A stretch of 64,000 nt of DNA from Babesia bigemina (taxonomy: Eukaryota), in contig NC_027217.1 in the NCBI RefSeq assembly GCF_000981445.1, positions 248,001 to 312,000 of the forward strand. Direction: 5' to 3'. Every line of letters begins with the position of its first letter. Within the stretch, counting starts at the first letter, position 1. The notes beneath the pieces were generated by a model. The model had not been told where the DNA came from. It saw nothing but the letters and a program-made list of their open reading frames with translations, and did not search any database. Of this stretch, positions 11,587 through 38,272 are shown one piece after another. Both the position numbers and the translations under genes were made by a program.

Positions 11587-14500
11587 ATGCATAGCGTCCC
11601 CGTGAAAAATTCGCCGCCGCCAGATCTGGCGAGCGCGGCGCTAGCGGCGCATCAGGATGTCGTTCAGGTTCTAAAGACGACTAAGTTTGTGAACGTCGCG
11701 AATTTAAACGAGTACCTAAGTTCCGCGTCCGGCCCTAACTGTCGCGTGGTGGTCCAGCCAGTTGAGGCGGGTTCCGCGATCGCAGAGCAGCTCGACCGCG
11801 CGTTGGAGGAGCTTCAGCAGCGCAAAGCCGTGTCTGCGAGTCCAGGATCGACTACGCCCGGGTGCTCGAACGGACAGCATGCAAACACGCCGGTTAACAC
11901 CCCCGCCGCCACGCCCTCGCATCTGCCGCAGCCAGCCTCCACTTCCGCGGTGGCGTCCGTTCAGACACTGCGTCAAGCACACTCCGAAGAGCTAACCAGG
12001 CCGGCAACGTTCATGCAACAGCAGTACCGCGCCGCGGAAGTGCGATCGGCCGAGAACTTGACTTCCGTAGCGTCAAGCCACCGCTGCGTCGTGTCTTCGT
12101 CGACCTCCCAAAGCGAGGCGGCGCAGGACCCGAACTCTGACCTCAAGGGGCGCGTTTCGTCATTGTTAATGCAGCTTAAGAGCGTGAATTTGGTTCCTAG
12201 CACCCCTGAGGCTAGGTCAGAGGCGGACGGTGCGCAGCGCACCACCGTGGACTCGTACTCGTCCTTCTCCGATTTCAACGTTAAGAACGCGGGAGCGCAT
12301 AATGATGGAGAGACTACGAAAGCTAACTCCGAAGAACCCGTGATGCGCATTGAAACCAAGCCTAACCCCGCCGTGTTAGTGTTGAAGTCCCCCGTCGCAG
12401 CCCAACCCGTGGCTGAGGAGGAATCGAAGTCGCCATCTCAGGGCTGCCGCGAGGCGTGTCAGGAAACCAATACACTATCTTCAACGCTCTTGTGCCAAAA
12501 TTCGGCCACGTGTACGTATAGGGAAAATCCCAACGTGGAGTCCACGCTCGGTCCCCAGCAGCGTGACTGCGCCCAGCGGCCCGTGCAGCAGCAGGGGCCT
12601 GCGGAGGACCCAATGTCCGCCCTTGCCGCGAGCATGCAAAAACAAGCAGCAGTGAGGGCCAGTGGCGATGTCTTCAATGAAGAGAAAAGCGAAAGCAGAG
12701 TTGTGAGGAGGTTCAACGTGCCGGTGCGCAATGCCCCCGCGAAGCCCGTGGAAGAGCCCAGGGACAACATGCTACGTGGTTTAAACGTGCAAGCACCAAC
12801 TTCTAACATGAAACCCCAGCGGTCTGTGGACTCGTCGATGCAGTACATGCCCAGGCAGCGCACGCAACGCGTTAACCACGTGCGCAAGGTGGGCCCGCGC
12901 AGGAAGGCCGTGGTGGTCGGGTGCAGCTACTACGGCGACCCCGAGGCGTGCCTGCGTGGCCCGTGCAACGACGCGATGCTGTTCGCGTCCACGCTGGTGA
13001 CCCACATGGGCTACGACCCTGACGACGTGTTGCTGCTGATCGACACGGAGCCTGCGGATATCTACACCCGTCAGCTGGTTGCGATGTCGTCGAGGCCGAA
13101 CCCTTCGCTGTCATCGCGCCGCAACTCCATGGAGCGCCGCAAAACTGGCGTCATTGGCGGGCTACTGGGAGGGCTGATCGAGGACGTGTTCAAGGGCGTG
13201 GTGGCCGACAGCGACCTGGACGTCCCCGAGATGCTGATGCTCGACTCGCCGGGCGCCGCGATCGACGAGTCCAACCGACCGTCGCGCGCCAACATTCTAA
13301 AGGCACTGCGTTGGCTGGTCAGCGGCACTCGCCCCGGCGACTGCGGGGTGTTTTACTTCTCCGGCCACTCCGTCCAGACCGACGACATGAGCGGCTGGGA
13401 AGGTGAGGGCTACGACGAGGCTATTGTACCGTGCGACTACATGTCTTTCGGCGACCCTTCTCGTGGCGTGATCCCTGCGGCCCAGCTGCGTCAGGTGATC
13501 CAGTCGGTGGACAAGCGGTGCCAGATGACCATCGTCCTGGACACGGTGGGCATGCAGACGGCGCTCGACCCTGCCGGCCGCAGCGGCCCGTGGCGCTACA
13601 TCAAAGGCGCCATGCTGCGCGGCATCTGGCCGCTTACCGACGCCACCGGCAAGATGCAGCGCGCTTGCTACGACGCCGATGTGTGGCGCGACGTGCACAT
13701 GCAACAGCAGCTGGTGCGGCCGAAGTTCCTGCCGATGCTGCAAGTGGACTGCGCCGCGGCGTTGCTGGACGGTTTCATCTCGTCCAACACCGGCGCCGTG
13801 TCGTCTAACTCGCTGTGCCTCGCCGCTGCGCCGTTTCAGGATGTTGCCGTCGAGGCGCTGTTCCGCCCGGTGTCGCTGAGCGGGATGCCGCTCGCGCCGA
13901 GCATCTACCAAGGGTGCGAGCAGGTGGTGTGCCACGGCGTTTTCACGTACTGCCTCGTGGCCACGCTACTGAAAGACCGTGCGTCGAAGCGTGGCGGCAT
14001 CACCGTGCGTGAGATAATTTCGGGCATTCAGCGTCGGTGCAAGTACCTGCGTTCGACGCGTTTGCCGAAGCTGAGCCAGGCGTGTGAGGCCACCGTGCAC
14101 CCCGCCGGCGTGGCGTCCGTGGACGACTTCTTCTTGTCCCCCTGGGGCGGCCGCGTGCTCATCGACCGCCACCGGAATATCGCCGTGGAGCATCCTCTGA
14201 AGGCCCTCAGCGCGGGGCTGGGCGCGTTCCTGACGCTGCCGGAGGCGTGGATGCAGCTGCACAACGAGGGTCGCATGCGCGCCGTGGAGCAGAGGGAGAA
14301 GTTCGGGCGTATGCGCAGCGCCGTGGTGAACGGAAGCCGCATGGTGACGGAGGACCTGCGCCAGATGCTGCTGCAGCAACAGCAGGCGCAGCACGGGTAC
14401 GTGTCGCGCGTGCCGAGCAACACTGTGATGCTGGGCCACGTGCCTCAGCAGCAGCGCGTGGACGCGGGCAACAGCTGGTACGGCAAGGTGTCCGCCGCCC

Positions 14501-15042
14501 AGAGCCCGCAGCAGAGGCGGTCGCCCGAGTTCGACCCGCGCCATGCGCTCTACCAGCCGCAGTGCCAGCAGCAACGCCAGCAGATGCACGTGCTGCAGCA
14601 GCACAACCATTACGAGCCGCAGTACCAGCAGTACGTGGTCCATCCGTCCTTCAACATGGCGGGCCACGCGCAGCGGTGCGCCGGCGCCGCTGCCAACATG
14701 CCTCTCGGGATGACGTTCCCCGGCGCGTACCACGCGCAACAGTACCAGGAGTCCGAGGAGTACTTCGAGGCTTCACCTCCCCAGTTCGGCGCGTGCCAGC
14801 AGGCGCCTACCGCGCCCTTCATGCACTTCGTTGCTCCGCAGGCGGCGCAGAAGCACGAGCCCAGGCGGAGGTCGTACCATTGTCGCAGCAGCACTTCGAC
14901 GATGCCGGACATGGGCTGCCAGTCGCGCCCCGCCGTCGTGCGCCACAACACCGGCTCGTGCCACCGCGGCAACATCAAGCTGGCGGAGCACCTGACGAGC
15001 TCGTTCGTGGCCCAGCTGCCCACCGCGCAGCACTACTTTTAA
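11587..15042 (+). CDS. Metacaspase (peptidase C14B) family protein, 1151 aa, catalytic Cys replaced
   Basis: RKAVVVGCSY...LRGPCNDA; SRANILKALRWLV...PGDCGVFYFSGHS; EGYDEAIVPCDY; TIVLDTVG in place of D-S/C-C-H-S-G; HGVFTYCLV. Confidence 0.9.
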   Translation: MHSVPVKNSPPPDLASAALAAHQDVVQVLKTTKFVNVANLNEYLSSASGPNCRVVVQPVEAGSAIAEQLDRALEELQQRKAVSASPGSTTPGCSNGQHANTPVNTPAATPSHLPQPASTSAVASVQTLRQAHSEELTRPATFMQQQYRAAEVRSAENLTSVASSHRCVVSSSTSQSEAAQDPNSDLKGRVSSLLMQLKSVNLVPSTPEARSEADGAQRTTVDSYSSFSDFNVKNAGAHNDGETTKANSEEPVMRIETKPNPAVLVLKSPVAAQPVAEEESKSPSQGCREACQETNTLSSTLLCQNSATCTYRENPNVESTLGPQQRDCAQRPVQQQGPAEDPMSALAASMQKQAAVRASGDVFNEEKSESRVVRRFNVPVRNAPAKPVEEPRDNMLRGLNVQAPTSNMKPQRSVDSSMQYMPRQRTQRVNHVRKVGPRRKAVVVGCSYYGDPEACLRGPCNDAMLFASTLVTHMGYDPDDVLLLIDTEPADIYTRQLVAMSSRPNPSLSSRRNSMERRKTGVIGGLLGGLIEDVFKGVVADSDLDVPEMLMLDSPGAAIDESNRPSRANILKALRWLVSGTRPGDCGVFYFSGHSVQTDDMSGWEGEGYDEAIVPCDYMSFGDPSRGVIPAAQLRQVIQSVDKRCQMTIVLDTVGMQTALDPAGRSGPWRYIKGAMLRGIWPLTDATGKMQRACYDADVWRDVHMQQQLVRPKFLPMLQVDCAAALLDGFISSNTGAVSSNSLCLAAAPFQDVAVEALFRPVSLSGMPLAPSIYQGCEQVVCHGVFTYCLVATLLKDRASKRGGITVREIISGIQRRCKYLRSTRLPKLSQACEATVHPAGVASVDDFFLSPWGGRVLIDRHRNIAVEHPLKALSAGLGAFLTLPEAWMQLHNEGRMRAVEQREKFGRMRSAVVNGSRMVTEDLRQMLLQQQQAQHGYVSRVPSNTVMLGHVPQQQRVDAGNSWYGKVSAAQSPQQRRSPEFDPRHALYQPQCQQQRQQMHVLQQHNHYEPQYQQYVVHPSFNMAGHAQRCAGAAANMPLGMTFPGAYHAQQYQESEEYFEASPPQFGACQQAPTAPFMHFVAPQAAQKHEPRRRSYHCRSSTSTMPDMGCQSRPAVVRHNTGSCHRGNIKLAEHLTSSFVAQLPTAQHYF

Positions 15043-15161: not shown

Positions 15162-17820
15162 ATGATGTCGGACGGCGTGGAGCGCAGCGGCGGCGATATG
15201 GCCGTGACCAAACCCGTCGAGTTCATCGACTACAACTGCGACATTAGGTGCGCCGACTTCGCGAGATGTGTATGCTGTGCAGCGACTCGTTCAACGAGTA
15301 CCTGAGGGGCGAGAAGTTCGAGAAATTCGGGTTCCGCTACAATGTGCTGTCGATCCTGGGCTGCCAGAGCAGCGGGAAGAGTGGGTAGCGTCGGTTTGAA
15401 GTCTCAGTTTGCGCAGGCTCGCTGCTCAACGCGGTCTTCGGGCTCAGCTTCGACGTGATGGACACCAAGCTGGGCCACAGCCAGACCACCAAGGGCCTCT
15501 GGGGCGCGCTGGTGTTGCCCGAGGACGCCGAGCAGCACAACGCGACCCTGGTGATCGACGTGGAGGGCACCGACTCCAGGGAGCGCGGCGAGGGCCGCCT
15601 GACGTTCGAGCACCGTTCCTCGCTGCTGTGCCTGGCCATTTCCGACTGCGTGGTGATTAACCTGTGGTACCACTCGCTGGGCAACCTGACCGGCTCCAAC
15701 TACGGGCTGCTGAAGACTGTGATGGAGGCCAACCTGGAGCTGATGGAGGGCACCGACAGTTCGATGTAAGTTTGCCGCCGCGGTAAGCGCTCACTGCGCG
15801 TCAGGGGCCCAGTGGAGTGCAAGACTATTCTGTGCTTCTGCATCCGCGACTGGTTCCCGGAGCTCGCTCCGCTGGAGACCGTGCGCGGCAAGATCGTCAA
15901 CGGCTACATGCAGGGCATCTGGAGCGAGATCCACAAGCCCGCCAAGTTCCAGAACGCCGCGATGGAGGACGTGTTCCGCATCGAGCTGTTCGGTTTCAAC
16001 CACGCGCTCGCGCACAAGGAGGAGTTCGCCGCGGACGCCCGCAGGTTCCGGTCCGAGTGGCTGAACAACATCCGGCCCACGTCGTACTCGCGCGCGGTGC
16101 CGTCTGACGGCTTCTTCTACTACGCCAGGAACATTTTGAACACCGTGAAGGAGCAGAACCACCTGGACATCCCCACCCAGCGCGAGATGCTGGCCAACTT
16201 CCGGTGCCAGGAGATCAAGGTGTCCGTGCTCGGCGAGGTGGAGCCCAAGGTGGCGGCGATGCTCGCGGACGCGCAGTCCGGCAGCGTGGTAAACTTCAGC
16301 GAGCGCGCCGCTGAGGTGGCCGACCATGCCGTTGAGGCGTACCTCGAGTCCGCGTCGCGTTACGACGCGGAGACGAGCCAGAAGATCGGGAGGGAGCTCG
16401 TTCGCGCGCTGCTGCAAAAGATGCAGCCCAGTTTTGACGCCCTGATGGCGCAGGAGTGCTCCGAGATTGCCGTCCGCGCGACCGTCAAGATGGAGGAGAA
16501 GTTTTCGCTGAGCGGCAAGGGCCGGTCGCTGCTGGTGGGCGGTAGCCCCGCGACGGAGGCGTGGCCCAAGTTCACTGAGTCGTGCGAGTCCATCAGGTCC
16601 GAGCTGTGGGAGTCGCTGAACGCGCGGATGCAGGCCCACTCCGTGAGCTACAGCCACCAGAGCGGCATCGCCGTCGACCACGCCTTCGACACCACCGCCG
16701 CCAGCGACATGTTCAACGTGACCTTCAGGAACGAGGTCGACGTGGTGAAGAAGCGGCACCTGCACGCGCTGCGCGAGCAGATCGCCGACCTCATCGACGC
16801 CGGTTTCAAGGTGATCGAGACCGTGCTGCTGGAGAACGGCGTCACCAGCGACAAGTACTGGGGCGCCGTGAACTCTCACATCGAGCAGGCGTACCAGTCG
16901 TCGCTGGACCTGTACAGGTCGTGCTACGGGGGCATGATTTCGCCCGTGCAGTCGCAGGAGTTCGAGTACTTCGCCTTCGTGGCACTGGTGGGCCGCACCA
17001 AGGCCAACCTCGACCGCGTCGAGTCGCGCATCACTGAGATCATCGTGGAGCGCTTCGAGCAGTTCTTCATGTACCAGGAGCGCGACGGCGAGTCGATCCC
17101 GCGCGCGTGGGAGTCGTGCAGCGAGGACGAGCTGCAGCAGACGTACGCCCGCTGCAAGAAGGAGGCGCTGAACGTGGTGGCCGTGATCCGGGACTGCCGT
17201 CCGTCAAAGCTGAAGGTGCCCCGTTTCGACGTGTCTGAGCTGAAGCCCACCCACGTGCTCTACCGCGAGCTGAGCACCGGCGTGTCCGGGCTGGTGGCCG
17301 GCGAGTCGTCCCTGAGCGACGACGTGCTGGTGGACACCGTGAAGGCGTGCAAGCTGCGCTTCCACGAGCTGTACCACCGTGCCCACCAGATCCAGAGCTA
17401 CGCGCGCGGCGGCATTTCGTGGCGCACCATCCCCACGTACTTCTGGGTGCTGCTGCTGGTCTGCGCGTGGAACGAGATCTGCACGGCGCTGCGTGTCATC
17501 TTCAAGGTGCAGGTGCTCATCCCGGTGGTGATTCTGGTGTTTTTGGCCGTGCAGTACGGCTCAACGTATGTGTTCGGCGACTCGGCGAGGGCGTAAGTGC
17601 GGTTGCGTTGCGTCACATTTTCCGCAGGGTGCTGGAGCCCCTGAAGGCGCAGGCGCGCAGCCTGTGCTTCCAAGGGGCCCGCTGGGCCTTCCACGCTGCC
17701 TCAACGGCAGTTTCCGTCGCCAGGGACGTGCGCGGTGCCCGGAGCGCGCGTAGCGCGTCTGTACCGGAGGACGACGATGGCAGCAGCGCCGCGGAGAAGG
17801 ACAGTCCTCCACCAAGCTGA
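15162..17820 (+). CDS. SEY1: SEY1/RHD3 atlastin-like ER-fusion GTPase, multi-exon
   Basis: YNVLSILGCQSSGKS|SLLNAVFG, QTTKGLW, VIDVEGTDSRERGE, FCIRD, LDIPTQREMLANFRCQEI, and C-terminal TM hairpin (IPTYFWVLLLVCAWNE); short introns, e.g. 15248-15282. Confidence 0.95.
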
Positions 17821-18019: not shown

Positions 18020-18447
18020 ATGTGTTCGGCGCTGGCCCCGAAGCCGGTGTCGAAGCGTGCCCGCCGCGACTCGGACTCCGAGGATTCGGATCCTGAGAAG
18101 CCGCCGGAGCACGCGCCTCTGCTGGACAGCGGCAAGAAGCGCGACCCCATCGACCTGCGCGCTGCCATCGAGAACGACGCTGCGGAGTGCGAGAGGTGGG
18201 TGGCTGCACGGTGGCTCTGATTCGCTGCAGGAAGGGCCTCTCGAGCTGGAAGCTGTCGCACGCGGGCTCCTCGTCGCTGCCCGCGCGGCACCTGTGCGTC
18301 ATCTGCGGGTTCTTCGGCAGCTACAAGTGCATGGAGTGCGCGTCCAAGCGCATCGCGGAGCTGCGCACGTACGTCTGCGGCCCCCGGTGCCTCGAGGTCC
18401 ACAAGGACCAGAGCTGCGGGCGCCCGCTTAACCTAACCCACTGGTGA
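18020..18447 (+). CDS. SWC6: HIT zinc-finger protein SWC6/Vps71/ZNHIT1-like (SWR1 complex); intron 18196-18230
   Basis: SSLPARHLCVICGFFGSYKCMEC...YVCGPRCLEVHKDQSC matches the ZNHIT1 C-terminus. Confidence 0.8.
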
Positions 18448-18546
18448 TAAATATCGGTTCTTTGCGTATTGTGCAGTGCGTGGAGGGAGTGAGCATTAGG
18501 CGTGGTTCGCGCGGGCGCGCACGCTGAGCCGCAGCGAGGTGCGGCG

Positions 18547-19905
18547 TCAGTCGTCGAGCTCCATGTGGTCGTCGGTGAAGAGGAAGTCCGGTACCTGCGG
18601 GCCCCCCGCTGCGAATAGTGTCGCGTGCACCCGCGGCAACCCACCTTTGGCGAGCGAGCTGGCGTCGGGCTTGTCCCCCGCCGGCCTGGCGACGTTCGCG
18701 AAGTGTATGCCGGCGTTGTTGAACTTGAGCATGAGCTCGAGGAACTCCGCGATGGAGACGGTGATGCTGCGCCTGTTGGAGAGCCCCGAGTCCTCCAGCA
18801 CTTGCATGCAGTAGTCCTGCCGAACCGGTGTCTCCACTGCGCTGCGAACCCACCTTGAACGGCACGGGCTCCGGCGCCCGGCGGTTGATGGTGCACCAGT
18901 TCTTGTAGTTGCCCTCGAGTATGGACAGCACCGCCTGCTTCTTGAAGAGGCTGCGAAGCGTGCGTCGCTTGCGCGAGAAGCAGACGCGGATCATGCCGTC
19001 CCACTCGACGAAGTCCACCTGCGGCCCGTGACCGCCGCCGGCGAGCGTTTAACCTACCACCAGCGGCTGCTCCCTGGGCACGATCTTGACGATCATGCTG
19101 TCGACCTTGGGCGGCGGGTTGAAGCTGCCTGCGTATGCATGTGCGATGCGGCCGCGGCGCCCGCCCACCTGGCGCCACCTTGCAGACGCGCGTGACCGTG
19201 CAGAAGAGGCGCGTGTTGATCGCCAGTCGGCCGTACTTCTCCTCGTTTGTGGAGGCCAGCAGGCGCTCGGCGAACTCCTTCTGGAACATGAGCACGGCGC
19301 ACCTGAAGAGCGGCCTGTGCGAGAGCAGCTTGAAGACGAACGGGCTGGATATCTGGTAGGGCAGGTTGGCGGTGCATACGTCGAACTTGGGCAGCGTGGT
19401 GCGGAGCGCGTCGCCCTCTATGACCTCGAGGTTGTTGTACCCCATCGACACGCAGCGTTTCTTGACCTCGCCGACCATGCGGTTGTCAATGTCGATTGCG
19501 ATGACCTTGCGGGCGATGGGCACGAGGCGCACCGTCAGGTTGCCGGTACCTGTGGGCGCTTTAGGGGCGCGCAGCCTTGCACTCACCGGGACCGATCTCC
19601 AGCACGGTGTCAGAGCTCCTGATCTCCGCGGCGAGCACGATCTTGTCGAGTATGCCGGGGTTCTTCAACATGTGCTGGCCGAACTTCTTGTTGAATACCA
19701 TGCCGCTGGACATGTGGCGGGCGTCGGAGGCGCCAGCGGCGGGCGCCTTCTGGCTCATGGCTGCCGCGGGCTGCGCCACGGAGGCCGCCTGGCGCGCTCC
19801 CTTGGGCCCTGCGTCCGTTGCTCAACTCCGGCAGCGCAACCTACCGACGGCGCAGATGCGATAGGGCTCGACCCTGTACTGTGTCTTCTGCCGCCTGGAC
19901 GCCAT
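18547..19905 (-). CDS. DIM1: 18S rRNA dimethyladenosine transferase, multi-exon
   Basis: FNKKFGQHMLKNP, VLEIGPG|TGNLT, CTANLPYQISSP, AVLMFQKEFAERL, YGRLAINT, FNPPPKVDS, EWDGMIRVCFSRKRRTL. Confidence 0.97.
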
Positions 19906-20066: not shown

Positions 20067-22716
20067 TTAAAATGAGTCGCGCTGCAGGAGGCTGGGGAAG
20101 CAGGCGTCGTATGTGTTGATCGCCATGTGCGCGTAGTACTTCACGTCGATATCGGGGTCCTGCAGCAGCTTGCAGAGCAGCCTGTGCGCGGTGAGCGGGC
20201 TTTGGCGCGACTTACGCTCGGGCGCGTACGAACGCCTCGACGGTCTTCCCCTGGTAGATGATGAAGAGGCTGCGCAGCCCCTTGACTGCGACGAACCTGA
20301 CGTTTGCAGTGGGATCCTGCGCTTCGTGTATAACCTAGGCGCGGGTCCTACCTTCGTGGCGTTGAATATGATGGGCAGCACGCGTGCCAGCGTGGTCTGC
20401 AGGTCCAGCGACTTGGTGACCGCCTGCGCGCATTGCTCTCCGGACCGGCGCCCACCCACCACCAGCGCCTGTATAATGACGATCTTGAGGGCGTACGACA
20501 GCGGCACGTCCTCGGGCTTCACGTAGCACGAGCTGCGCGGCTCTACGTACATCTTGATGATCTCCGTCAGGATGGTGTCCGCGACCCAGGGCACCTTGCA
20601 GTCGGCGCACAAGGCCTCGATGCTCTCGACGACGGTGACCCTGACCTTCCAGACGGGGTCCATCAGCAGCTGGAAGAGCATGCGGAGGAAGTAGCGCTCG
20701 AAGACGGTGCGTCCGAAGTGGTGGTAGAACGAGTTGATCATCTCCGCGAGTATCGCCCGGTGCCGCCAGCGTGTCGACTGCAGCACCTGCTCGACGGTTT
20801 CCGTGATGCTGGCGCCGATGCCGCTTTCGAACTCCCGCCCGTTGCAGAGTGCTTCTATGTGCTCGATCGCGCTGCGCTGTCATGTGCGAGCGGCGTCGCG
20901 CCGTCACCCACCTTAGCCTGACGTCCATGCAGTCGTCCCGCAGTAGCCTCCGCAGCACTGGCGACAGGCGTTCGTGCACGTTCCCCCGCGTCATTTGCGC
21001 GGCGAAAATTGCGAATATCCTGCATATTAACTGCCTGTTCTTGCTGTCGTAGTCGCCCAGGTGCGACTCGAAGAAGGCGATGTACTGCTGCGCCATGGGC
21101 GGTGAGAGCCTGCGGCACCACCTGAGGAACGACTCGACGGCCGCCTCCTTGACGATGTCGTAGTCGTCTGTGAGCAGCGCGACGTGCGTACTCATGAAGT
21201 GCGCGGCCATTTCCGCCTCGCCGAAGACCTCGTGGATCTTGTCGAACCGGACGGCCAGCGCCTTGCGCACCCGCCACGAGCTGTCGGAGGCGGCCGCCTG
21301 TACCACCGGGTAGCTCAGCGAGGCGTTCTGCTCCGGCGTGCAGCGCTTGGCGAATGCGAGGCACGCCCCGACGCAGTGCGCTCGCACCTCGTCCTGGTGG
21401 TCGATGGACATGTTTTTGAGCACGAGCCAGAACATGGACACTGCGTGGTCCATGTGCATGATCGCGAGCATGGTCTCCAGGTTACGCGCCACCTCGAGCT
21501 TCACTATCAGCATGCTGTTTTCCCAGAGCTGCTTGTAGCACTGCCGGAGCACCTCCTGATGCTGCTCCGAGGCGTCCAAGTAGAGCAGCGGTATGAGCTT
21601 GCAGGCGGAAACGGCGTCCGCGAACCACTCGCCTGCGCTGAATGAGGCGCGCGTGACGCGCGATTACACTGACTTTCGGAGAGCCTCTTGAGCAGCGGCA
21701 TGACGGAGGAGGCCATGACGTCGTACCCCGCGTCGCTGGAGCGCACGTCGTTCACGATGTTCACGATCAGCTCGACGGCCTGCGGGCTGTGAGGTGCGGC
21801 GGGCGCCAACGTACCCTGTTCCGTATGTCCGGGTCCTCCTGCGATATGAGCGACGAGACGCCCTGCACGATGGCGTCGACGTACGCCTCGGCGAAGCTGA
21901 TCTTGGAGAGCGTGCACCAGACGTCCATCGCCATCTTCATCAACTGGATGGGCATTCCGTGCTGCGCCTCTGGGAATGCGTTAACACGGCTCCAGCTCAC
22001 GTGGACCTACCTGCGAGGAACGGCACCAGCAGGGTCCCGCAGAGCTCCGGCCCCAGCTGCTGCGTCACGATGTCGACGTGCATCAGCGCCTCCATGGCGC
22101 CCTCCTTGCCCCCCTGCACCTCGGTTTTGAAGAACTCGAACGCGGGGTAGAGGGGCGCGTTGATCTTGACCGGTTCCGCGACTTTCTCGGAGGAGCCCAT
22201 GTCGGCGCTGCCTGCGAAGGTGACCCTCGTGGTGCTGCTTGGCTGGATGACGTCCATCTTGCCCAGTGCAGCGCTGCCGTTGACGGCATGCGGTATGTGC
22301 TCCACGGCACTCGCGCGCGGGATGTCACCCAGGGGGATGGCCTCCGTGCCATTCTGCTCCGGACTGGCCTTGACGACACGTTTCGGGTGTCTGGCGCCCA
22401 CACCACGACTTGCGATGCTGATGCTCATTTTCGCAACGTCGTACTCCAGCGCCGGTACGCGGGGCACGTCGGCGCTCGAGCTGTCTGCGTTGGTGTTGAC
22501 GGCGGTGGAGGTCTCCGGTTCGACTGGCTTACCGGCCACCGCACCCTCTTCATCCGGCTTGGCGACCGCCGTTGGCGGATCCGCGGTCGCATCCGCCGCA
22601 CCGTCGCCAACAGTGTTGCCACTTTCGTGCTCCACATCGTTCTGAGCCGGCTCCTGCGCGAGTTCGGCCTCCGGCGTCCGCTCCGGTTGAGGCGGCCCGG
22701 GATCCTGCGATTCCAT
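20067..22716 (-). CDS. Protein phosphatase 2A scaffold (A/65 kDa) subunit-like HEAT-repeat protein with ~175-aa disordered N-terminal extension, multi-exon
   Basis: LYPAFEFFKTE...QQLGPELCGTLLVPFL, EWFADAVSACKL, DSSWRVRKALA, TRWRHRAILAE, LLQDPDIDVKYYA align by eye with PP2A-A repeats. Confidence 0.8.
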
Positions 22717-23565
22717 CGTTGTACCTCCGCGTGCCGACACCAGTCTGTTGTCCGTCCTGAATTCACATTTCGGCAATCGTGCTGTCTTTCGGGGAGGTGG
22801 GTTTCAGCTACACGGCCGGCTGACCGCGGAAAGTTGTGAAACACGGCGGCAGCTGCCGACCGCTAGGTGACCATGAACGACACTGCTAGCCCTTCTGGCA
22901 ATTGCAGCGCATTAATTTAAACTAAGTGAACGCCGCGTCGGTGCGTCGCAGCCGTGCTGCCTTCGCGGCGTAAACACTCTACTGGCGCGTGCGGTGTGCC
23001 ATGTCGCAAACCCGTGGACACACCCAGAGCTTTGTGCGATTTAAACATGCATGTTTTAATGCGCCGGTGCCTATTTGACGTGACCACGGGCCAGCTTTGC
23101 GAGAGGGGCCGCATCAGCGGTCATACGGGCCGCGCGGCCTCGGCCCCGCGAACCGGATCGTACTCGCGACGTGCAATCGGATTCCCCGTCCGATCCCACT
23201 GCTAGCAACTCTACGTGGCCAGTGGTGGACGGTTATGTATGTAGACACGCGTGTGTCGTCGTCCATACGGAGTCTTGTGGAAAGGCCGCGTGCCGCCGCA
23301 GCCTTCCACGTTCAGGCACGCATAGCATCACGTATATCGCACGTACGCAGTTTTGCACGCCCGTAGGCGTGCCGGTTCGCGCTTTTTTGGGCCGAAATGT
23401 GCGACCTTCCACCCCATAACAAGCCGCTTCGCTGCGGGAGCCGGGCGCCGCGGACGCGCGCCACAGGCTTCTATCAGATTCTGGCCGCTATCAGAGGCGC
23501 AACCACCTGTTTGCGCACAATAATGTTCCGCTGGGTGCCGTCGGCCCTCTGAGTCGGCTCGCACG

Positions 23566-25344
23566 ATGGGACTGCTTCGGGTCCTCGGCGCCCTGGCCAT
23601 CGCAATCCACGCCGCTGCGGTGCTGGAGCGCGGCGGCAGCGCGGCCGGTACGGCTATGGCAGTCGCCCTGCGCAGCTGTGAGGGCTGCTGCGATGTGTTG
23701 GGCCCCGGGCGCGCGACTCGGGCGCCGCGCGGCGCCGGCGCGTTCATCGGCTCGTCAGCCGCCAAGTGGAAGGTAGGTGGCGGTCCGTGCGCAACAGCAG
23801 CTGCAGGCGGGTTCCGGCGCGGTCCTGGACGGCCGTAGGGCGTCCGCTCTAGGCAGGAGTTTCGCGAAGGCGAAAGAAGAGGTGCGCGCTGCGTGAACGA
23901 GTGGTTTTGTGCTGTGGTACATGTCGTGTGCGTGTCGGTACGTAGCAGTGGCCGCGAACGGCGGTGGTTCCGGCGTCCGGGCGGGTTGCATTTCGCGTGT
24001 TGGATTACCCCTCAATTGCGCAAAGGACCCCGCTTCCACGGATGATGACCTCGACGGAGTGGCCTCCGATGTCTTCGAGGACGAGGTGGGGTACGACGAC
24101 ATCTACGACGAGGATAGCGAGTACGGCAGCGAGGAGGAGGAGGAGGATGAAGAAGATGAAGATGAAGAAGGCTCGACGTCGGAGTACGACTCCGACGAGG
24201 AGGCGGGCAACAGCGCCTTCGACTACAACGCCCGCGGGGAGCTGATGCTGCCCAACCTTCCCAGGCTGTCGAGGACGCGCGTGTCCCGTAACCGCCACAA
24301 GCTGTTCCGGGGCAGCGTCGTGCACCTCTCCGACCTGGTCTACCCGTTGGTGGTTCACGACAAGGTGGGTGCCCCCGCTTGCGCCGTGACGTTTCGCAGG
24401 AATCGTCGGAGTCCGTGCCCGAGGTGCCGGGGCTGAGGCTGATGTCCATTGCGGACCTTGTGAAGGAGGTCGAGGAGGCCCGTAACCTGGGCCTGACGTC
24501 GTTCATGATCCACCCCCACATCGACAAGGCTCTGCGCAGCCAGTTCGCCGATGAGGGGCTGAACCCGGACGGGCTGCTGCCGCGCGCGATCGACGCCGTC
24601 AAGGAGGCCTTCCCTGACGTGCAGGTGTTCGCCGACGCGAGCGTGGCGCACTTCTCGCTGGACGGCCACGACGGCCTGGTGGAGCCGCAGACCGACTTCA
24701 TCGCCAACGACGTGTCGGTGAGCCAGGTGGCGAAGCAGGTGACCACGCTGGCGTCCGCCGGGTGCGACGTGGTGTCTCTGAACGACACGCTGGACGGCAC
24801 CGTCGGTGTGGCGCGCGACGCGCTTGACTTCGAGGGGTTCACCGACGTGTCGCTGATGAGTCGCGCCGGCAAGTTCAACTCCGTGCTCATGGCGCAGCAG
24901 CGCAAGCTGCTCGGCATGACCCCGTCGGAGAATGTGCGGCCCGAGAGCTACCTGCATGACGTGGCGGTGGACGAGGAGAGCATCATGAAGGGCATGCAAG
25001 GTGCGTTTCCAGCCGACTGCGTCACACCCGCTGCAGATGTGGACGACGGGGCCGACCTGGTCGCCGTGGAGCCCGCCACCGGATTCCTGGACGTCATACG
25101 GAACCTCAAGGACCGGCTGCGAAGCCCCGTTGTGGCGGTGCACACGACCGGGGAGTACCGGGCGCTGAAGGCCGCGGCGGCGGCGGGGGTGTTCGACGAG
25201 CGCGCGGCTGCGCTCGAGGCCATCCGCGGCCTGCGGCGCGCCGGCGCCGACGTGATCATCTCCAGCTTCTCGAAGGATGTTGCGCAGTGGCTGTTGGAGG
25301 ATATGCAGACGAACGGGATGGAGCACGTAGCCCTAGGTTTCTAA
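23566..25344 (+). CDS. hemB: Apicoplast-targeted delta-aminolevulinate dehydratase/porphobilinogen synthase homologue, probably inactive; exons 23566-23772, 23807-23881, 24026-24364, 24400-25000, 25037-25344
   Basis: Hydrophobic signal + basic transit peptide; LSDLVYPLVVH, NPDGLLPRAIDAVKEAFPD, FSLDGHDG, AGCDVV..DTLDG, DDGADLVAVEP, GEYRALKAAA, RRAGADVII. All introns GT-AG and frame-consistent. Confidence 0.9.
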
Positions 25345-25483: not shown

Positions 25484-28400
25484 CCCGCTGACCCCCTGCC
25501 GGAGAACCCGCAAGTGGTGCGCGGGCGGCTGCCCAACGGCCTGGAGTACACGCTGCTGCCGAACGCGAACCACTGCGAGCGACTCGAGGCGTACCTGGAG
25601 GTGATGAGCGGCTCCGCGGACGAGCTGGACCACCAGCGCGGCGTGGCTCACTTCTGCGAGCACGTGACCTACATGGGCAGCAGGTGCGTTGCGGCGGGCC
25701 CCCGACTCACCACCCGCAGGAAACGGGACGCGCTCGTCGGCCGCGACGTGCGCACGAACGCGTTCACCGACTTCCACCACACGGTGTTCTACGCGTCGTG
25801 CCCGTCGTCGATGGAGGGCTGCGGCGGCCGCGAGGGCTCGCTGGAGCGTGCGCTGGAGGCGCTCGCCGACGTCGTCGTGGCGCCCACGCAGTTCACCGCC
25901 TCGCGCGTCGAGAAGGAGCGGCAGGCGATCCTGTCGGAGGCGCGCATCATCAACACGCTGGAGTACCGCAAGAACTGCGCCACCGTGGAGGCGCTGCACT
26001 CGGAGACCAGGTGGGCTGGCGGCGCGGCCACGGCTAACCCCTTGCAGGCTGTGTCGCAGGTTCCCCATCGGCGACCTCGACGCGTTGGAGCGCTACAGCG
26101 TGCAGGACCTGGCCGACTACCATCGCATACACTACCGCCCGTCGAACCTGCGCCTGTTCCTCGTCGGCGACATAGCGCCCGAGTCGGCCATCCGGGCGGT
26201 CGAGCGCGTGTTCGCCGGGATGCAGGAGGACCGGGAGCTGGTCGACCGGTACATGCGTGAGCACGCGGACATATACCAAGGCACCGTGAAGGAGTCGCGG
26301 TGGGGGCTCCCGCCGGCCAAGCACATCTGGGACCAGCCTGGTACGTTTGCAGCGCCGGGCGCCGTGTAACAACGCTGCAGGCCCGATCGCGCACGTTTGG
26401 CAAAACGGCCAAATAAGGAATTTGAGTCTCGAGGTCGTGAGAAAAATGCCGATCCCGACGATTCTCACGTGCGGCGATATGCGTCAGAGCTTGCTGATGA
26501 AGCTGGCGTACCGCATCATGTCGCTGAACTTCGACATTCTGCAGCGGGGCGCGGGCTCGCTGGAGTCGGTGGAGGCGAACGACTACGACTGCACCAACGA
26601 GGGCTGCCGCGTGCGCTCGTTCGAGTTCCGGTGCGCGCCCTACCAGTGGCGCGACGCGCTGTCGGCCGCCGTGGCGCAGGCGAAGTGCCTCGCCACGCAG
26701 GGCGCGACGCACGAGATGTTCTCCCTCGTCAGGGACTCGATGCTGCTCGACTGCTCGCGGCTGGACAGCGCCAAGGCGGACAACCGCGACGTCATCGCCG
26801 GGCTGATGGACGCGGCGACGTGCGGGCGCACGGTGATGCTTCCGGACGCCGAGAAGGAGCTGGTCACCGACATGCTGCACAGCGTCCGCCTGGACGACGT
26901 GAACGACATGGCGTCGCGGCTGTTCCCGTGGTCGTCCGGGGAGAGTTTCTCGGGGATCCACCTGATTTGCTCCACGCCTCCTCCTGACCCGTCCATCGGC
27001 TACGACGGCGTGACGGAGGAGCTCGTCGCCGACGCCTTTGAAAGCGAGTGCCGCGAGCCGCTCTCCGCCGCGGCGCTGAACCCCAACGTCAACACGCCGT
27101 CGCAGCTGCTGAGCGACGAGGAGCGCCGTGAGGTGGTCGGGCGTCGCCCGTACGGCGAGGCGCCGTCGTTCGTCGCCAACCCCATGCTGCCGAAGGAGCG
27201 GTACGCTCGCCCGGAGGAGCCGCGGGACGAGGTGCTGAGGTCGCTGGCCGTCGGCGGCGACCTCCGTCTGGTGTCGGAGCGGTACATCGACGCTGTGCGC
27301 GACTCGTTCAAGCTGCGGTCCGACATCGAGTACATCACGGAGAACACGGAGACGCCGTCGGAGCTGTCGCGGATCGGCGAACGGCTAACTGAGGGGTCCA
27401 GCCACCTCGTAAACGAGCGAGAGCACGGCAAGTACACCCAGGCGCTGGCGAACCTGCGCAAGCCCCTGGCGTCGACGCTGGACCCCGGCGACGTGCTCTA
27501 CCGCGAACGGCCGGGCCCGGCCGGCATCCACCTGCTGACGCTCGGCAACAGCATCCGTGTGAACCTGCGCGTGGGCGAGGGCGACCAGATGGCCATGAAG
27601 GCCGTGATCCCCATTGAGTACGACTACTGCAACCAGGAGGCGCTGCTGCGGCGCAAGCGCGAGCTGCTCCTGGCGGCCAACGCGATGATGGAGGGCGGCG
27701 CCATGGGCAGCCTGAGCCGGCTGCAGGTCGAGATGTTCTGCAGCCAGCACCTGATCGACGTGATGATCGGGGCCAACGAGGACTACTTCTCGATCGAGAT
27801 GTCGTTCCCCTACGGCCGGCAGGGCCGGCGCGGCGGCAACCTCGAGAGCGCCCTGCAGATAATGCACGCGCTGCTGCAGCACCACCGCATCGAGCCGGAC
27901 GCGCTGGCGCGTGCCAAGGACAAGCTGCGCCGCGACCGCGACGTGTATGCGCAGGATCTCCAGGCGTACGGCACCGCCGACCTGGTGTCCGCCATGAGCG
28001 AAGGCAAGCTGACCTACCACAACCTGGACATGGCGGCCATCGGCGAGTCCAAACTGGAAAACATCCAGGCCACGTTGGACGGGATCTTCAAGCGCGGCGC
28101 CGTCGAACTCTCGATGTCCGGCGCGTTCGACCTGCAGGCGGCGAAGTCACTGCTGCTGCAGTATATCGGCACCGTGCAGCTGCCCGAGTCGACGGCGCCC
28201 GCACCGGACCGCTACCAACTCTGGCGGCACTACGACACCGCAAGCGACGATGCGGCTGACAAGGGCGCCCGGTTCACCACTGTCCAAGACGACGCCGTTG
28301 GCCCCGCTTCCACTGGCGGAAGCGGATCGGAGGCGTCCGACGCCCCGGCGAGCCCCGAGGAGCGGCACCGGCTCATTTTGGTGCCGGACAACCAGGAGCG

Positions 28401-29111
28401 CGCCATGGTGCTGGTGGGCGGCTACGCCCCGAACGCCAGCGGGATCATGCCGGACGGGACTCACATGGCCGACATCATGCACGCGGAGCTGTACGCGACC
28501 TTGGCGACCGACAGGGACGTGAACAACAACGTGGAGAAGCTGGTGCGCACGGCGAAGGAGCTGTGGCTGCACCCCGCGTTTCCCCGCGCCGCGTGCGCGC
28601 TGCTGCAGGAGATTCTCAACAACCGCTCGTTCACCGTGGTAAGCTTTGCGTGAGCCCCCTTCATCGCACTCAGCTGCGCGCGGAGAAGCACCTGACGTAC
28701 GAGTCGAACGTCGACTTCGTGCTGTACGACGTGCAATTCGCAGGCTATTTCGTGATCTCAGTGCACTCGTCGTTCGACAAGTCGGAGTCTATCCTGGAGG
28801 AGACGCGCAACCTGGTGGCCGAGCTGCGGGCTGGGATCAGGCCAGTCACGGAGCACCATCTGCAGCGCGCGCGGGACCAGGTGGTTGCGCGCCTGCGCAA
28901 GGACAGGACCGCCCACCGCCACTGGGTCGGCGAGCTGCTGGGGACGCAGAGCCGTCGGGTGCCGCTAAAGAGTTCATTATTCTGCACTGAGTTCGAGCGG
29001 GTGCTGCGCCGCATCACCTTGGACGACGTGCACCTGATGTTCGGGTCGAACGCCTTCGGCTTCGGCGAGGAGCACATGTGGAGCCGCGTCGTGCACACGG
29101 CCGTCGGCTAG
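25484..29111 (+). CDS. SPP: Stromal processing peptidase (M16 insulinase family); no own ATG/leader, predicted to be spliced to exons 1-2 at 23566-23881
   Basis: VRGRLPNGLEYTLLPN...LEAYLEVMSGSADELDHQRGVAHFCEHVTYMGS (HxxEH at 25649-25663), TNAFTDFHHTVF, VEKERQAILSE, RFPIGD; acceptor 25482-25483 with branch point TACTGAC; four short internal introns. Confidence 0.92.
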
Positions 29112-32609: not shown

Positions 32610-32950
32610 CGTGAGCGGCCGTCAGGGTTCGGACGGCGTGGCTCGCGGGAAGATGCTGCAGTGATTGTATGCCTGTCGTTCTACATTAATTGGTTGTGGT
32701 TGGCGGCTCGGCGCCGTTGACCCTACGTGGGTGATTCCGCAGGCAGCGACCTTCCGCGCGGCGGCGAGCGGCGGTTACTAGGGCACACATTGCCGCACTC
32801 CCGTCGTAGAATACGTAATTTACGATCAAATGGCGCGTCAATGCCGATGAAGGACGGCCGGCCGCACTTTTGCGCGGGATTCCACGCACGCCGACGGCGG
32901 TGCCGTGATGACGCCGCTTGACGGGAACGGCCTCAGAAACCGCTCTATAC

Positions 32951-34759
32951 ATGGTAGCGGCTGCGTTGGCGCTACGGCTGATCGGCTGTGCCGCCTGCCT
33001 GTCGGTTTGTGGTTATCGCAGCTCCCGGAAGGGAGCGTCCATGGCATTCGCAACTCCAGGGAGAATATGCGGGACACGAACAAGGTGTGAGGGGTCAGCC
33101 CGCCCTGTAGACATACTGGGGGTGCCTTCGCGATTGTATGCGTCGGATCCGGTGGGTCCCGCCACTTCAACGGCTACCGAACATGCGGTGAATCCTACTT
33201 CATCCGCCGAACGTGCAGCGACTCTGCCGAACGGCTCAGCTGATGATGGCTCGGGCTACGATGCGGAGGCGCTGGCTGCCGCTTTCACCCACGGAGCCAG
33301 CGCGCCGATGCTGCGGCAGATCAGCAGCCGTCTGGCGAAGATGCGGACCATCAAAGGAGATCTGCGTGTCGACCCGTACCCCGAGGTGAGCGAGGAGAGC
33401 GCTCGTACGGTCGTCGACGTCGGCCGCATTGCAGCCGCTCACGCCGATCTTGGTGACGGGGAAGAGGTGGAATCTATAAAGTACCGCGTGCGCGGGCGCA
33501 TCAAGTCGATCCGATTTGACGGCTTGTTTGTGGTAATCGAGGACGTCAAGGGCCACGGCCTGCAGGTCATGTTCAGACGCCACCAGGACATCGCGGTCGG
33601 CGGCGCGTCGTTCAGCGCCAACCGTGTTGGAGATGTGCTCGATATCGGCGACATCATACTTGTAGAGGGGCACCCGAAACGCACGGCCACGGGCGAGATG
33701 ACGTTGGTGGCACACTCCTTGGGGGTGCTCGCCAAATGCCTGCTGCCGATGCCCGACGGCTTCCACGGCCTGAAGGACGTCGATACGCGACAGCGACTGC
33801 GCCACCTGGATATAATGACGTCCGCGGAAACTAAGCGGCTGCTACAGCAACGGTCGCACATGGTCTGGATGCTGCGCCAGTTCCTCCACGGCCGGGGTTA
33901 TGTGGAGGTCGAGACGCCGGTCCTCTACCACGGGTACAGCGGCGCGCAGGCTACGCCGTTTGTGACGCGCTCGGAGGCGCTCGACCAGCGGCTGTATCTC
34001 AGGATCGCGCCCGAGTTGTTCCTGAAGCGCCTGGTCACCGCCGGCCTCGCCGATAGGGTCTTCGAGATCGGCAAGTGCTTCCGCAACGAGGGAACGAGCA
34101 CGCACCACTCCCCCGAGTTCACGATGCTCGAGCTGTACCAGCAGATGGCGGGCATGGGGGACATGATGCGGATGACGGAGGAGATTGTGGCGACGGTCGC
34201 AACGGGGCTGCGCGTCGCCGTCCCCAAGTTCACGACCAAGTCGATGAGCGCGCTCATAGAGGAACATGCAGGGGTCAAGGTGGAACAGTGCAGCAGCGAA
34301 CAGCTGGTGGCCGCGCTGGCGGAGAGAGGCGTGGACGAGACGGCGTTGCACGACACGACTTGGGGCGGCCTGGTTTGCGCCCTTTTCAAGCATGCCGTCG
34401 AGGGCAAAATACTCGAGCCCACGCACGTCACAGCGCTACCCGCCGACTCATCGCCACTGGCGGCGGTTGACGCGGACGGCGTCCACGGACGCGTGTTCGA
34501 GTCGTACCTCGGCGGCCTGGAGTTCGCGCACGGATGCACCGAGGAGTGCGACCCCGTCAAGCTCCTGCGCAAACTGGATCGCTGCAGGCAGGAAGGGCTG
34601 AGCAGCTCGAGGGACACCGAGTTCCTCAACGCCGTGGCGTACGGAATGCCGCCCACAGCGGGGCTAGGCATCGGGATCGACAGGCTCCTGATGGCCCTCA
34701 CCGGGGCAACCAGCATCAAACACACGCAGACATTCCCGCTGCTGAAAAATGTAGAATAG
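32951..34759 (+). CDS. lysS: Class II lysyl-tRNA synthetase, probably apicoplast-targeted
   Basis: Signal-like MVAAALALRLIGCAACLSVCG plus basic transit region; OB fold; EVETPVL, LYLRIAPELFLKRL, FEIGKCFRNEG...HSPEFTMLELY, YGMPPTAGLGIGIDRL. Confidence 0.93.
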   Translation: MVAAALALRLIGCAACLSVCGYRSSRKGASMAFATPGRICGTRTRCEGSARPVDILGVPSRLYASDPVGPATSTATEHAVNPTSSAERAATLPNGSADDGSGYDAEALAAAFTHGASAPMLRQISSRLAKMRTIKGDLRVDPYPEVSEESARTVVDVGRIAAAHADLGDGEEVESIKYRVRGRIKSIRFDGLFVVIEDVKGHGLQVMFRRHQDIAVGGASFSANRVGDVLDIGDIILVEGHPKRTATGEMTLVAHSLGVLAKCLLPMPDGFHGLKDVDTRQRLRHLDIMTSAETKRLLQQRSHMVWMLRQFLHGRGYVEVETPVLYHGYSGAQATPFVTRSEALDQRLYLRIAPELFLKRLVTAGLADRVFEIGKCFRNEGTSTHHSPEFTMLELYQQMAGMGDMMRMTEEIVATVATGLRVAVPKFTTKSMSALIEEHAGVKVEQCSSEQLVAALAERGVDETALHDTTWGGLVCALFKHAVEGKILEPTHVTALPADSSPLAAVDADGVHGRVFESYLGGLEFAHGCTEECDPVKLLRKLDRCRQEGLSSSRDTEFLNAVAYGMPPTAGLGIGIDRLLMALTGATSIKHTQTFPLLKNVE

Positions 34760-37874: not shown

Positions 37875-38272
37875 GGCTCAACTGGGAATGAGCACATTCC
37901 TCCGAGCAACTATCAAAATACACGTGATGTGTTGTTAATCCATATGGGTGGTACTCATTTCAGCTACAAAATGCTACGAATGTAGGCAGACGCGACCTCG
38001 ACATGTGTAGCGTCGCGAGTTCATCAAGAGAACCAAGGGAAGGAGGCACGAAGGTTAGCTCGGCTATCACGCGAAGTGCGTTGCTGCTGTCAGTTTTTGG
38101 TGACGGGTAGTATGTGACCGACGGCAGCTGGTAATAATCTCTGCGCGCGACAAGCGTCGGTACGCTGATATCGATGCCGCTGCAGGGTTACACATCGCAA
38201 CGGAATCAACAAAAACAGCGAAACGAAAGCTAAAATATCTGATCGACCAACAATTAACCGCGCATCAATTAC

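What the first reader, a model, noticed from the sequence alone, without database searches (positions are those of the whole stretch)
24400..25344. HemB/ALAD appears catalytically dead (Schiff-base Lys->Glu) but the ORF is intact
Seen: GADLVAVEP (GAG 25069-25071) where PBGS has invariant GADxxMVKP (E. coli K247/human K252). Neighbouring motifs are eroded: APSDMMDG->SLNDTLDG, MSYxAKFASxFYGPFR->MSRAGKFNSVLMAQQR (first Lys kept, 24871-24873), AYxVSGEY->AVHTTGEY, YQxD lost. There are no stops or frameshifts and all introns are intact. Known: piroplasms are generally regarded as lacking de novo haem synthesis. Inference: a pseudoenzyme kept for a non-catalytic apicoplast role, or kept because of the shared splice architecture with SPP.
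Basis: partly seen in the sequence, partly recalled or inferred. Interest (0 to 1): 0.8.

Follow-up and report, generated by a model that had tools for sequence, protein, structure and literature searches.

The report
Dead haem enzyme conserved in piroplasms
A haem-synthesis enzyme gene of Babesia and related tick-borne blood parasites has its key catalytic lysine replaced by glutamate in every sequence examined yet is tightly conserved, so it likely encodes a dead enzyme kept for another job, predicted to be structural and inside the parasite's plastid.

Summary
Confirmed and extended. The window holds a five-exon Babesia PBGS/HemB gene (23566-25344) directly upstream of the stromal processing peptidase (SPP). 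GAG stands at 25069-25071 and is matched by a spliced contig from another run. The Lys-to-Glu change is in 9 of 9 piroplasmid rows (Babesia sensu stricto, B. duncani, T. equi), against Lys in 367 of 373 other PBGS. The substrate pocket is selectively eroded (5 of 19 family-conserved residues kept, 14 of 21 at the predicted dimer interface), while the fold is intact (TM 0.96 to Toxoplasma PBGS). It is not decaying: 11 synonymous to 1 replacement variant within the species, 81-88% identity between Babesia species versus 68-76% for SPP. So SPP splicing alone does not explain its retention. Retention of the gene is published (Brayton 2007, Sato 2011); I found no passage noting catalytic loss, and databases still assign EC 4.2.1.24. 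Best reading: a clade-wide pseudoenzyme with a non-haem, probably apicoplast, scaffold role. Activity, location and partner are untested; B. microti's copy was not seen.

The parts
23566..23772 (+). Exon 1: start codon, hydrophobic N-terminus (predicted signal peptide) and start of predicted transit peptide; likely shared with SPP
   Evidence: leader read by eye and by likeness to P0128/P0130, no targeting predictor run
23807..23881 (+). Exon 2: end of basic leader; its donor (23882) is the likeliest branch point for PBGS versus SPP splicing
   Evidence: length match to B. bovis orthologue; first 94 aa have 13 K/R and 6 D/E; branch point inferred
23882..24025 (+). Intron 2, 144 nt (the other seven introns of the locus are 34-40 nt), AAG acceptor
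   Evidence: not seen spliced
24026..24364 (+). Exon 3: acidic stretch (33 of the first 62 residues D/E) and PBGS N-terminal arm
24400..25000 (+). Exon 4: PBGS TIM barrel, first part; includes kept first Lys, eroded lid, allosteric-Mg Glu replaced by Lys
24871..24873 (+). AAG, first active-site Lys (K365 of the model; K213 in the 3OBK construct), kept in 9 of 9 piroplasmid rows
25001..25036 (+). Intron 4, 36 nt, in frame; spliced out in a contig of run X3
   Evidence: table 5
25037..25344 (+). Exon 5: rest of barrel, conserved C-terminal tail, stop
25069..25071 (+). GAG: Glu (E419 of the model) in place of the Schiff-base Lys (K267 of the 3OBK construct; human K252)
25484..29111 (+). Stromal processing peptidase (M16) exons 25484-25683, 25720-26010, 26048-26340, 26381-28638, 28674-29111; no start codon of its own at the phase-0 acceptor, HEHVTY zinc motif region present
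   Evidence: joins in frame to exon 1, exons 1-2 or exons 1-3, join not seen in reads

Best explanation
This gene encodes a PBGS-fold protein whose Schiff-base lysine is glutamate and whose substrate pocket is eroded, so it likely cannot make porphobilinogen and is predicted to work as a non-catalytic homo-oligomer in the apicoplast that binds another protein. Shown by calls: the substitutions, their spread over 9 of 9 piroplasmid rows, strong purifying selection, one spliced transcript piece. Predicted: intact barrel and homodimer. Inferred: (1) after the piroplasmid ancestor lost the rest of the haem pathway the catalytic site was released, giving a long stem branch; (2) a second, non-catalytic role kept the barrel, N-arm arginines, dimer surface and C-terminal tail under selection; (3) two fixed charge swaps replace lost ligands, Glu at the Schiff-base site facing the kept Lys and a new Arg/Lys (Tyr210), and Lys at the allosteric-Mg Glu (Glu252), which would close the pocket and hold the oligomer without substrate or Mg; (4) the shared leader sends it to the apicoplast with SPP. 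My guess for the partner is the plastid protein-processing machinery (SPP/Clp), about 1 in 4, with no direct evidence. Odds: no PBGS activity 0.93; selected at protein level 0.95; scaffold rather than new enzyme about 0.75.
For: Glu in 9 of 9 piroplasmid rows, Lys in 367 of 373 others. Human K252M 'completely lost its enzymatic activity' (PMC7725820, passages). Also changed in all 9 rows: Asp138, Tyr210, Tyr219 (one gap), Gln240, Glu252, Tyr290, Tyr332; Ser183 in 8 of 9, Arg223 in 6 of 9 (3OBK construct numbering). Pocket 5 of 19 conserved residues kept against 14 of 21 at the predicted interface (Fisher p 0.014) and 43 of 76 elsewhere (p 0.022). NCBIfam PBGS equivalog cut-off 297 missed by B. 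bovis (272.6) and B. duncani (278.5), passed by Toxoplasma (454.1). Model of B. bovis protein pLDDT 94.8, TM 0.96 and rmsd 1.4 to 3obk. Within-species variants in exons 4-5: 11 synonymous, 1 Met-to-Leu, pN/pS 0.03, p 2e-6 under neutrality; SPP 34 to 12, 0.115. Tree length on 5 shared taxa 0.99 against 2.01 for SPP. One clade (SH-aLRT 100) on a long stem, next to Toxoplasma (91). Homodimer of the B. bovis protein: score 0.51, best of 3 controls 0.00, mark reached by 21 of 30 solved homo-pairs and 0 of 23 single chains (eukaryotes 17 of 29), runs agree in at least 94% of contacts, pLDDT at least 87; PBGS oligomers are solved, so this pass may be from memory. Babesia lacks the rest of the pathway (PMC2034396, PMC7252677, PMC10249562; passages).
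Against: No assay, localisation, knockout or partner data. The predicted interface is no more invariant among piroplasmids than the rest of the protein (15 of 50 against 82 of 249, p 0.74), so nothing singles out the oligomer as the selected feature. 8 of 20 pocket positions are still invariant, including the new Glu, which also fits a new ligand or reaction. T. parva and T. annulata are reported to lack the gene (PMC3064897), so the role is not universal. The pocket list and residue roles are recalled from PBGS literature, not from a call. Variants come from contigs of depth 3-5 in 3 runs with partial cover. Expression rests on one contig of a run only guessed to be RNA. No genome was held, so absence of other haem genes in this organism was not tested.
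Confidence: 0.68

Rival explanations
1. The site was rebuilt, not killed: the kept Lys forms a Schiff base and the new Glu acts as acid/base (class I aldolase-like), or the pocket binds a new small molecule, so the protein has a new activity in the apicoplast.
For: Lys213, Glu267, Asp134, His145, Asp146, Asp184 invariant in 9 of 9; position 210 always Arg/Lys; 183 Asn in 8 of 9. A fixed Glu rather than drifting residues suggests selection on that position.
Against: Pocket invariance (8 of 20) is about the same as the rest of the protein (82 of 249) and the lid that closes the site varies freely, with a deletion in T. equi. A buried Lys-Glu-Arg set is equally explained as structural. No candidate substrate or pathway.
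Confidence: 0.16
2. The dead PBGS domain works as part of one fused PBGS-SPP protein (pro- or regulatory domain), as several gene models have it.
For: 4 of 9 piroplasmid models are fusions, all joined at the same place just before the C-terminal tail; an in-frame GT at 25327 would give the same join here; a B. bigemina model is fused too.
Against: That GT has C at +5 where 8 of 8 introns of the locus have G. The tail after it is conserved as protein in the 5 stand-alone rows, B. duncani included, and apicoplast PBGS uses a C-terminal extension for assembly (PMC7729013, passage). B. bovis, B. duncani and B. microti are annotated as separate genes. No read shows the join.
Confidence: 0.07
3. The gene is a passenger: it sits inside the SPP transcription unit and cannot easily be lost (Sato 2011), with no function of its own.
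For: SPP has no leader of its own here and joins in frame to the PBGS leader exons; the arrangement is ancient (PMC3064897; P. yoelii models share one start coordinate).
Against: Exons 4-5 show pN/pS 0.03 and evolve at half the rate of SPP; no stop or frameshift in 9 of 9 rows across deep splits; a passenger needs only splice sites. T. parva and T. annulata did lose it.
Confidence: 0.05
4. The protein keeps some PBGS activity through the remaining Lys, using host ALA.
For: First Lys, Asp134, Asp146 and the fold are kept; databases assign EC 4.2.1.24.
Against: Loss of the equivalent Lys abolishes activity in human ALAD; both carboxylate-binding sets are changed; no upstream or downstream enzymes are reported in Babesia.
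Confidence: 0.04

Closest known systems
Toxoplasma gondii apicoplast PBGS (PDB 3OBK) and Plasmodium ALAD, with the PBGS/SPP shared-leader locus
   Same: Orthologue by synteny with SPP, tree position, fold (TM 0.96), acidic N-terminal stretch and a C-terminal extension of like length.
   Different: Schiff-base Lys, lid residues, P-side Tyr and allosteric-Mg Glu are replaced; the organism lacks the rest of the pathway.
Babesia bovis BBOV_II001120 'delta-aminolevulinic acid dehydratase' (Brayton 2007; Sato 2011; Si 2023)
   Same: Same gene (81-85% identity); its retention without a haem pathway and its clustering with SPP are in print.
   Different: The passages seen treat it as an enzyme of the second haem step or a by-product of the SPP cluster; none mentions the lost catalytic Lys or selection on a dead enzyme.
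PfHO, the catalytically inactive haem oxygenase of the Plasmodium apicoplast (Blackwell 2024, PMC11634067)
   Same: A haem-metabolism enzyme that lost its catalytic residue, is kept in blood parasites including Babesia and Theileria, and has an essential non-catalytic apicoplast role (passages).
   Different: Unrelated fold; PfHO acts through a basic N-terminus on apicoplast gene expression, whereas this protein is acidic overall (34 K/R, 52 D/E) and is active as an enzyme in Plasmodium and Toxoplasma.
Reported moonlighting of mammalian PBGS as a proteasome-interacting protein
   Same: A precedent for a non-catalytic, protein-binding role of the PBGS oligomer (PMC13564367, passage).

Membership tests
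Porphobilinogen synthase (PBGS/ALAD/HemB, EC 4.2.1.24) | ALAD domain and TIM-barrel fold with N-terminal arm | tested here: met
   Pfam PF00490 208.9 bits against cut-off 24.6; TM 0.88 for the window fragment, 0.96 for the B. bovis protein to 3obk
Porphobilinogen synthase (PBGS/ALAD/HemB, EC 4.2.1.24) | P-side Schiff-base lysine (human K252) | tested here: not met
   Glu in 9 of 9 piroplasmid rows; Lys in 367 of 373 others
Porphobilinogen synthase (PBGS/ALAD/HemB, EC 4.2.1.24) | First active-site lysine | tested here: met
   Lys in 9 of 9
Porphobilinogen synthase (PBGS/ALAD/HemB, EC 4.2.1.24) | Lid and carboxylate-binding residues (Arg223, Lys237, Gln240, Ser293, Tyr332 of the 3OBK construct; roles recalled) | tested here: not met
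   Arg kept in 3 of 9, Lys 0, Gln 0, Ser 0 (Thr in 8), Tyr 0
Porphobilinogen synthase (PBGS/ALAD/HemB, EC 4.2.1.24) | Metal sites: Asp/Cys-rich site and allosteric-Mg Glu (roles recalled) | tested here: not met
   Asp138 is Ala/Ser and Glu252 is Lys in 9 of 9; Asp134 and Asp146 kept
Porphobilinogen synthase (PBGS/ALAD/HemB, EC 4.2.1.24) | NCBIfam equivalog NF006762 cut-off (297 bits) | tested here: not met
   272.6 (B. bovis), 278.5 (B. duncani), 222.5 (window fragment without N-arm), 454.1 (Toxoplasma)
Porphobilinogen synthase (PBGS/ALAD/HemB, EC 4.2.1.24) | Homo-oligomer (dimer, octamer) | tested here: inconclusive
   Dimer score 0.51 against 0.00 for controls, but solved relatives exist so the pass may be from memory; octamer not tested
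Porphobilinogen synthase (PBGS/ALAD/HemB, EC 4.2.1.24) | Condenses two ALA to porphobilinogen | not testable with these tools
   Needs an assay
Pseudoenzyme | Essential catalytic residue lost, fold kept | tested here: met
Pseudoenzyme | Intact reading frame under purifying selection | tested here: met
Pseudoenzyme | Expressed as RNA and protein | tested here: inconclusive
   One spliced contig in a run guessed to be RNA; no protein data
Pseudoenzyme | A non-catalytic function demonstrated | not testable with these tools
   Needs knockout and interaction data
Apicomplexan PBGS/SPP shared-leader locus | PBGS directly upstream of a leaderless SPP, leader exons joinable in frame | tested here: met
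Apicomplexan PBGS/SPP shared-leader locus | Leader-to-SPP spliced transcript observed | tested here: inconclusive
   No such joint in the 3 runs laid; X3 did not cover the leader or SPP

The most novel reading that the evidence does not exclude
Piroplasmids rebuilt PBGS into a new enzyme or ligand sensor: a Lys/Glu-swapped, Mg-independent barrel that performs a non-haem reaction or binding step in the apicoplast, the first natural change of chemistry in this otherwise single-function family, and a parasite-specific target.
Probability: 0.16. Interest if true: 0.85.

Novelty: new variant of a known kind. Interest (0 to 1): 0.62.

Why it matters
Since 2007 it has been a noted oddity that Babesia keeps one haem enzyme without the pathway, and the published explanation is entrapment in the SPP gene. 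The data here say the protein is almost certainly not a PBGS and is nevertheless more conserved than SPP, so it has its own selected job in an organelle whose only known essential output in piroplasms is isoprenoid precursors. That makes the question directly testable in cultured Babesia, points to a possible second role of apicoplast PBGS in Plasmodium and Toxoplasma that catalysis would mask, and means that EC 4.2.1.24 labels and fused PBGS-SPP gene models in piroplasmid annotations are probably wrong.

Tried and rejected
No whole genome was held, so other haem genes could not be searched. X3 gave no cover on SPP, which says nothing on expression. B. microti, Cytauxzoon, T. orientalis, Cardiosporidium and Plasmodium rows did not appear among the listed hits of the 4 protein searches (only best 120-150 shown), although a B. 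microti PBGS gene model exists (BMR1_02g02930): its state is unknown. Cross-species dN/dS was not possible without orthologous DNA; protein distances and within-species variants were used. First tree drew two long unrelated branches next to the clade; rebuilt without them; both are quick trees without bootstrap or root. First structure model included the 12 intron residues, which explains its low-confidence stretch; repeated with the B. bovis protein. VIA-align job not run, machine busy. Papers not held: DOI 10.1111/brv.12794, PMC3083160, PMC2903393; one guessed id was an unrelated paper; PMC3547853 and PMC5619821 had no Babesia passage. Three look-ups of earlier findings returned nothing. Rejected: sequencing error, strain-specific lesion, decaying pseudogene, constraint from antisense ORFs (third codon positions vary freely). 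My first exon guess for the leader was wrong and was replaced by the orthologue-matched model.

Full report
Observation. The codon at 25069-25071 is GAG and the first active-site lysine codon at 24871-24873 is AAG. The translation of 24400-25341 hits only Pfam ALAD (208.9 bits) and aligns best to Toxoplasma PBGS 3obk_A (E 1.7e-67), with GADLVAVEP on GADMLMVKP. Matching to orthologues gives five exons, 23566-23772, 23807-23881, 24026-24364, 24400-25000, 25037-25344, 509 aa, no internal stop, all introns GT-AG. An M16 peptidase (SPP) follows from 25484 to 29111. The closest named proteins are Babesia PBGS, and a B. bigemina gene model has the same 5,546-nt span as start codon to SPP stop here, so the organism is likely B. 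bigemina.

Not an error. Of 3 runs laid, a contig of X3 has 0 other letters over 25035-25113 and skips intron 4 with GT..AG ends; an X1 DNA contig spans 24768-25115 with no listed difference at the codon. X3 is only guessed to be RNA.

Spread. Four protein searches gave piroplasmid orthologues: B. bovis, B. divergens, B. ovis, B. sp. Xinjiang, T. equi, B. duncani and two unnamed. With the window these are 9 rows; P0002 and P0003 were dropped as near copies of the B. divergens and B. bovis rows, and both carry Glu too. All 9 have Glu; 367 of 373 other PBGS that cover the column have Lys, 6 do not, one of them Glu. The 380 comparison rows are top hits to piroplasmid queries, not a random sample. 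The 9 form one clade (SH-aLRT 100) on a stem of about 1.8 changes per column against 0.3 for Toxoplasma, its neighbour (91); branches within Babesia sensu stricto are 0.03-0.11 (quick tree). The change therefore predates the split of B. duncani, T. equi and Babesia sensu stricto. B. microti has an annotated PBGS that I could not read.

The site. In numbering of the 3OBK construct, four positions at least 90% conserved elsewhere are fixed at a new residue in 9 of 9: Gln240Leu, Glu252Lys, Lys267Glu, Val292Thr; 26 more are lost and variable, among them Ser183, Tyr210 (always Arg/Lys), Tyr219, Phe222, Arg223, Tyr290, Ser293, Tyr332; 33 are kept, among them Lys213, Asp134, His145, Asp187, Tyr239, Arg323. 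From recall of PBGS structures these changes remove the P-side Schiff base, both carboxylate-binding sets and the allosteric Mg ligand. The human equivalent K252M has no activity (PMC7725820, passages). Of family-conserved residues the piroplasmid majority keeps 5 of 19 in the pocket (list recalled), 14 of 21 at the predicted dimer interface and 43 of 76 elsewhere (p 0.014 and 0.022). B. bovis and B. duncani fall below the NCBIfam PBGS equivalog cut-off that Toxoplasma passes.

Fold and assembly. The B. bovis protein models at pLDDT 94.8 and matches 3obk at TM 0.96, rmsd 1.4; the window fragment gave 83.9 and 0.88. A homodimer of the B. bovis protein scored 0.51 against 0.00 for the best of 3 controls (mark reached by 21 of 30 solved homo-pairs and 0 of 23 single chains; on eukaryotes 17 of 29; runs agree in at least 94% of contacts; pLDDT at least 87), but PBGS oligomers are solved, so the pass may be from memory. 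The C-terminal tail is conserved in the 5 stand-alone rows; such an extension locks apicoplast PBGS in octamer or pro-octamer dimer, and a basic side chain takes the place of the allosteric Mg in metazoan PBGS (PMC7729013, passages), a parallel to Glu252Lys. Against over-reading: interface positions are no more invariant among piroplasmids than the rest (15 of 50 against 82 of 249, p 0.74).

Selection. The PBGS-like domain is 81-88% identical among the four Babesia sensu stricto rows compared, against 68-76% for whole SPP and 78-86% for its first 200 columns; with T. equi 53-57% against 48-54% and 70-78%. Tree length on these 5 taxa is 0.99 against 2.01. Within the species, the 12 variant sites listed in exons 4-5 are 11 synonymous and 1 Met-to-Leu (pN/pS 0.03; p 2e-6 if neutral, transition bias ignored); SPP has 34 and 12 (0.115), with 8 further rows not shown. 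Contigs are of depth 3-5 and cover is partial, but errors would not favour third positions. This is not a decaying gene.

SPP link. SPP begins at a phase-0 acceptor without its own start and joins in frame to exon 1, exons 1-2 or exons 1-3. Intron 2 is 144 nt with an AAG acceptor where the other seven are 34-40 nt with CAG, so it is the likeliest branch point (inferred; no read shows the join). Exons 4-5 would then lie in an intron of the SPP message, and splice needs cannot explain their amino-acid constraint. Four of the 9 models fuse PBGS to SPP; the donor needed here breaks the +5 G seen in 8 of 8 introns and would cut off the conserved tail, so I read these as prediction artefacts, not excluded.

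What is known. Brayton 2007 notes BBOV_II001120 despite absence of the pathway (passages). [quoted passage not shown] Si 2023 lists ALAD in Babesia (passages and supplements). Yeoh 2019 describes the shared leader in Plasmodium (passages). None of the passages seen mentions the lost lysine. Eight searches on Babesia or piroplasm with PBGS, ALAD, SPP or the locus tag showed no such report; the library lacks most subscription papers, three relevant papers were not held, I read passages rather than whole texts, and supplements other than Si 2023's were not seen, so a prior remark in a review or alignment figure is quite possible. Other papers consulted as passages without bearing on the claim: PMC4501334, PMC4532139, PMC6733595, PMC5619821. 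The nearest working analogue is PfHO, a dead haem oxygenase essential in the apicoplast (passages).

Verdict. A real, clade-wide, strongly conserved PBGS with a disabled active site: it works like a pseudoenzyme, and fails the defining catalytic tests for EC 4.2.1.24. Best reading is a non-catalytic apicoplast oligomer with a protein partner (0.68); rivals are a rebuilt enzyme (0.16), an SPP fusion (0.07), a splice passenger (0.05) and residual activity (0.04). New variant of a known kind; interest 0.62.

Noticed in passing
P0146, P0175, P0270, P0275, P0277: Five full-length, apparently prokaryotic HemB homologues also lack the Schiff-base Lys (Gln, Asn, Ser, Glu, Thr) with eroded lids, four on long branches; they fall in at least two places in the tree, apart from the piroplasmid clade. 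One cluster holds a Chitinophagales fragment. Dead HemB paralogues may have arisen several times.
   Followed up: partly
P0131: Theileria equi keeps the PBGS-like gene ahead of SPP, whereas T. parva and T. annulata are reported to lack it; a natural presence/absence pair for finding co-lost partner genes.
   Followed up: partly
P0121, P0129, P0130, P0131; window 25327: Public gene models fuse PBGS and SPP at the same point, which merges the two in one orthologue group and spreads EC 4.2.1.24 to SPP.
   Followed up: partly
window 23882-24025: Unusually long intron (144 nt) with the only AAG acceptor of the locus; likely the regulated splice choice between PBGS and SPP.
   Followed up: partly
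window 24026-24210: Acidic stretch (33 of 62 residues D/E) between leader and barrel, present in the other full-length piroplasmid rows and in Toxoplasma; role not examined.
   Followed up: no
window 37000-39000: GC falls from about 62-67% to about 45-50% and stays low to the end of the window.
   Followed up: no
window 38273-41206 (-) and 57873-60704 (+): Two large proteins with a C-terminal s48/45 (6-Cys) domain in the low-GC part.
   Followed up: no
window 11563-15042, 15770-17596, 18321-19664, 20335-22803, 32912-34759, 44365-45933, 52491-53252: Ordinary neighbours by Pfam: metacaspase, Sey1/RHD3 GTPase, rRNA adenine dimethylase, HEAT-repeat protein, class II tRNA ligase, ATP synthase alpha/beta family subunit, CCCH zinc finger; no other haem gene among the 22 ORFs scanned.
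   Followed up: no
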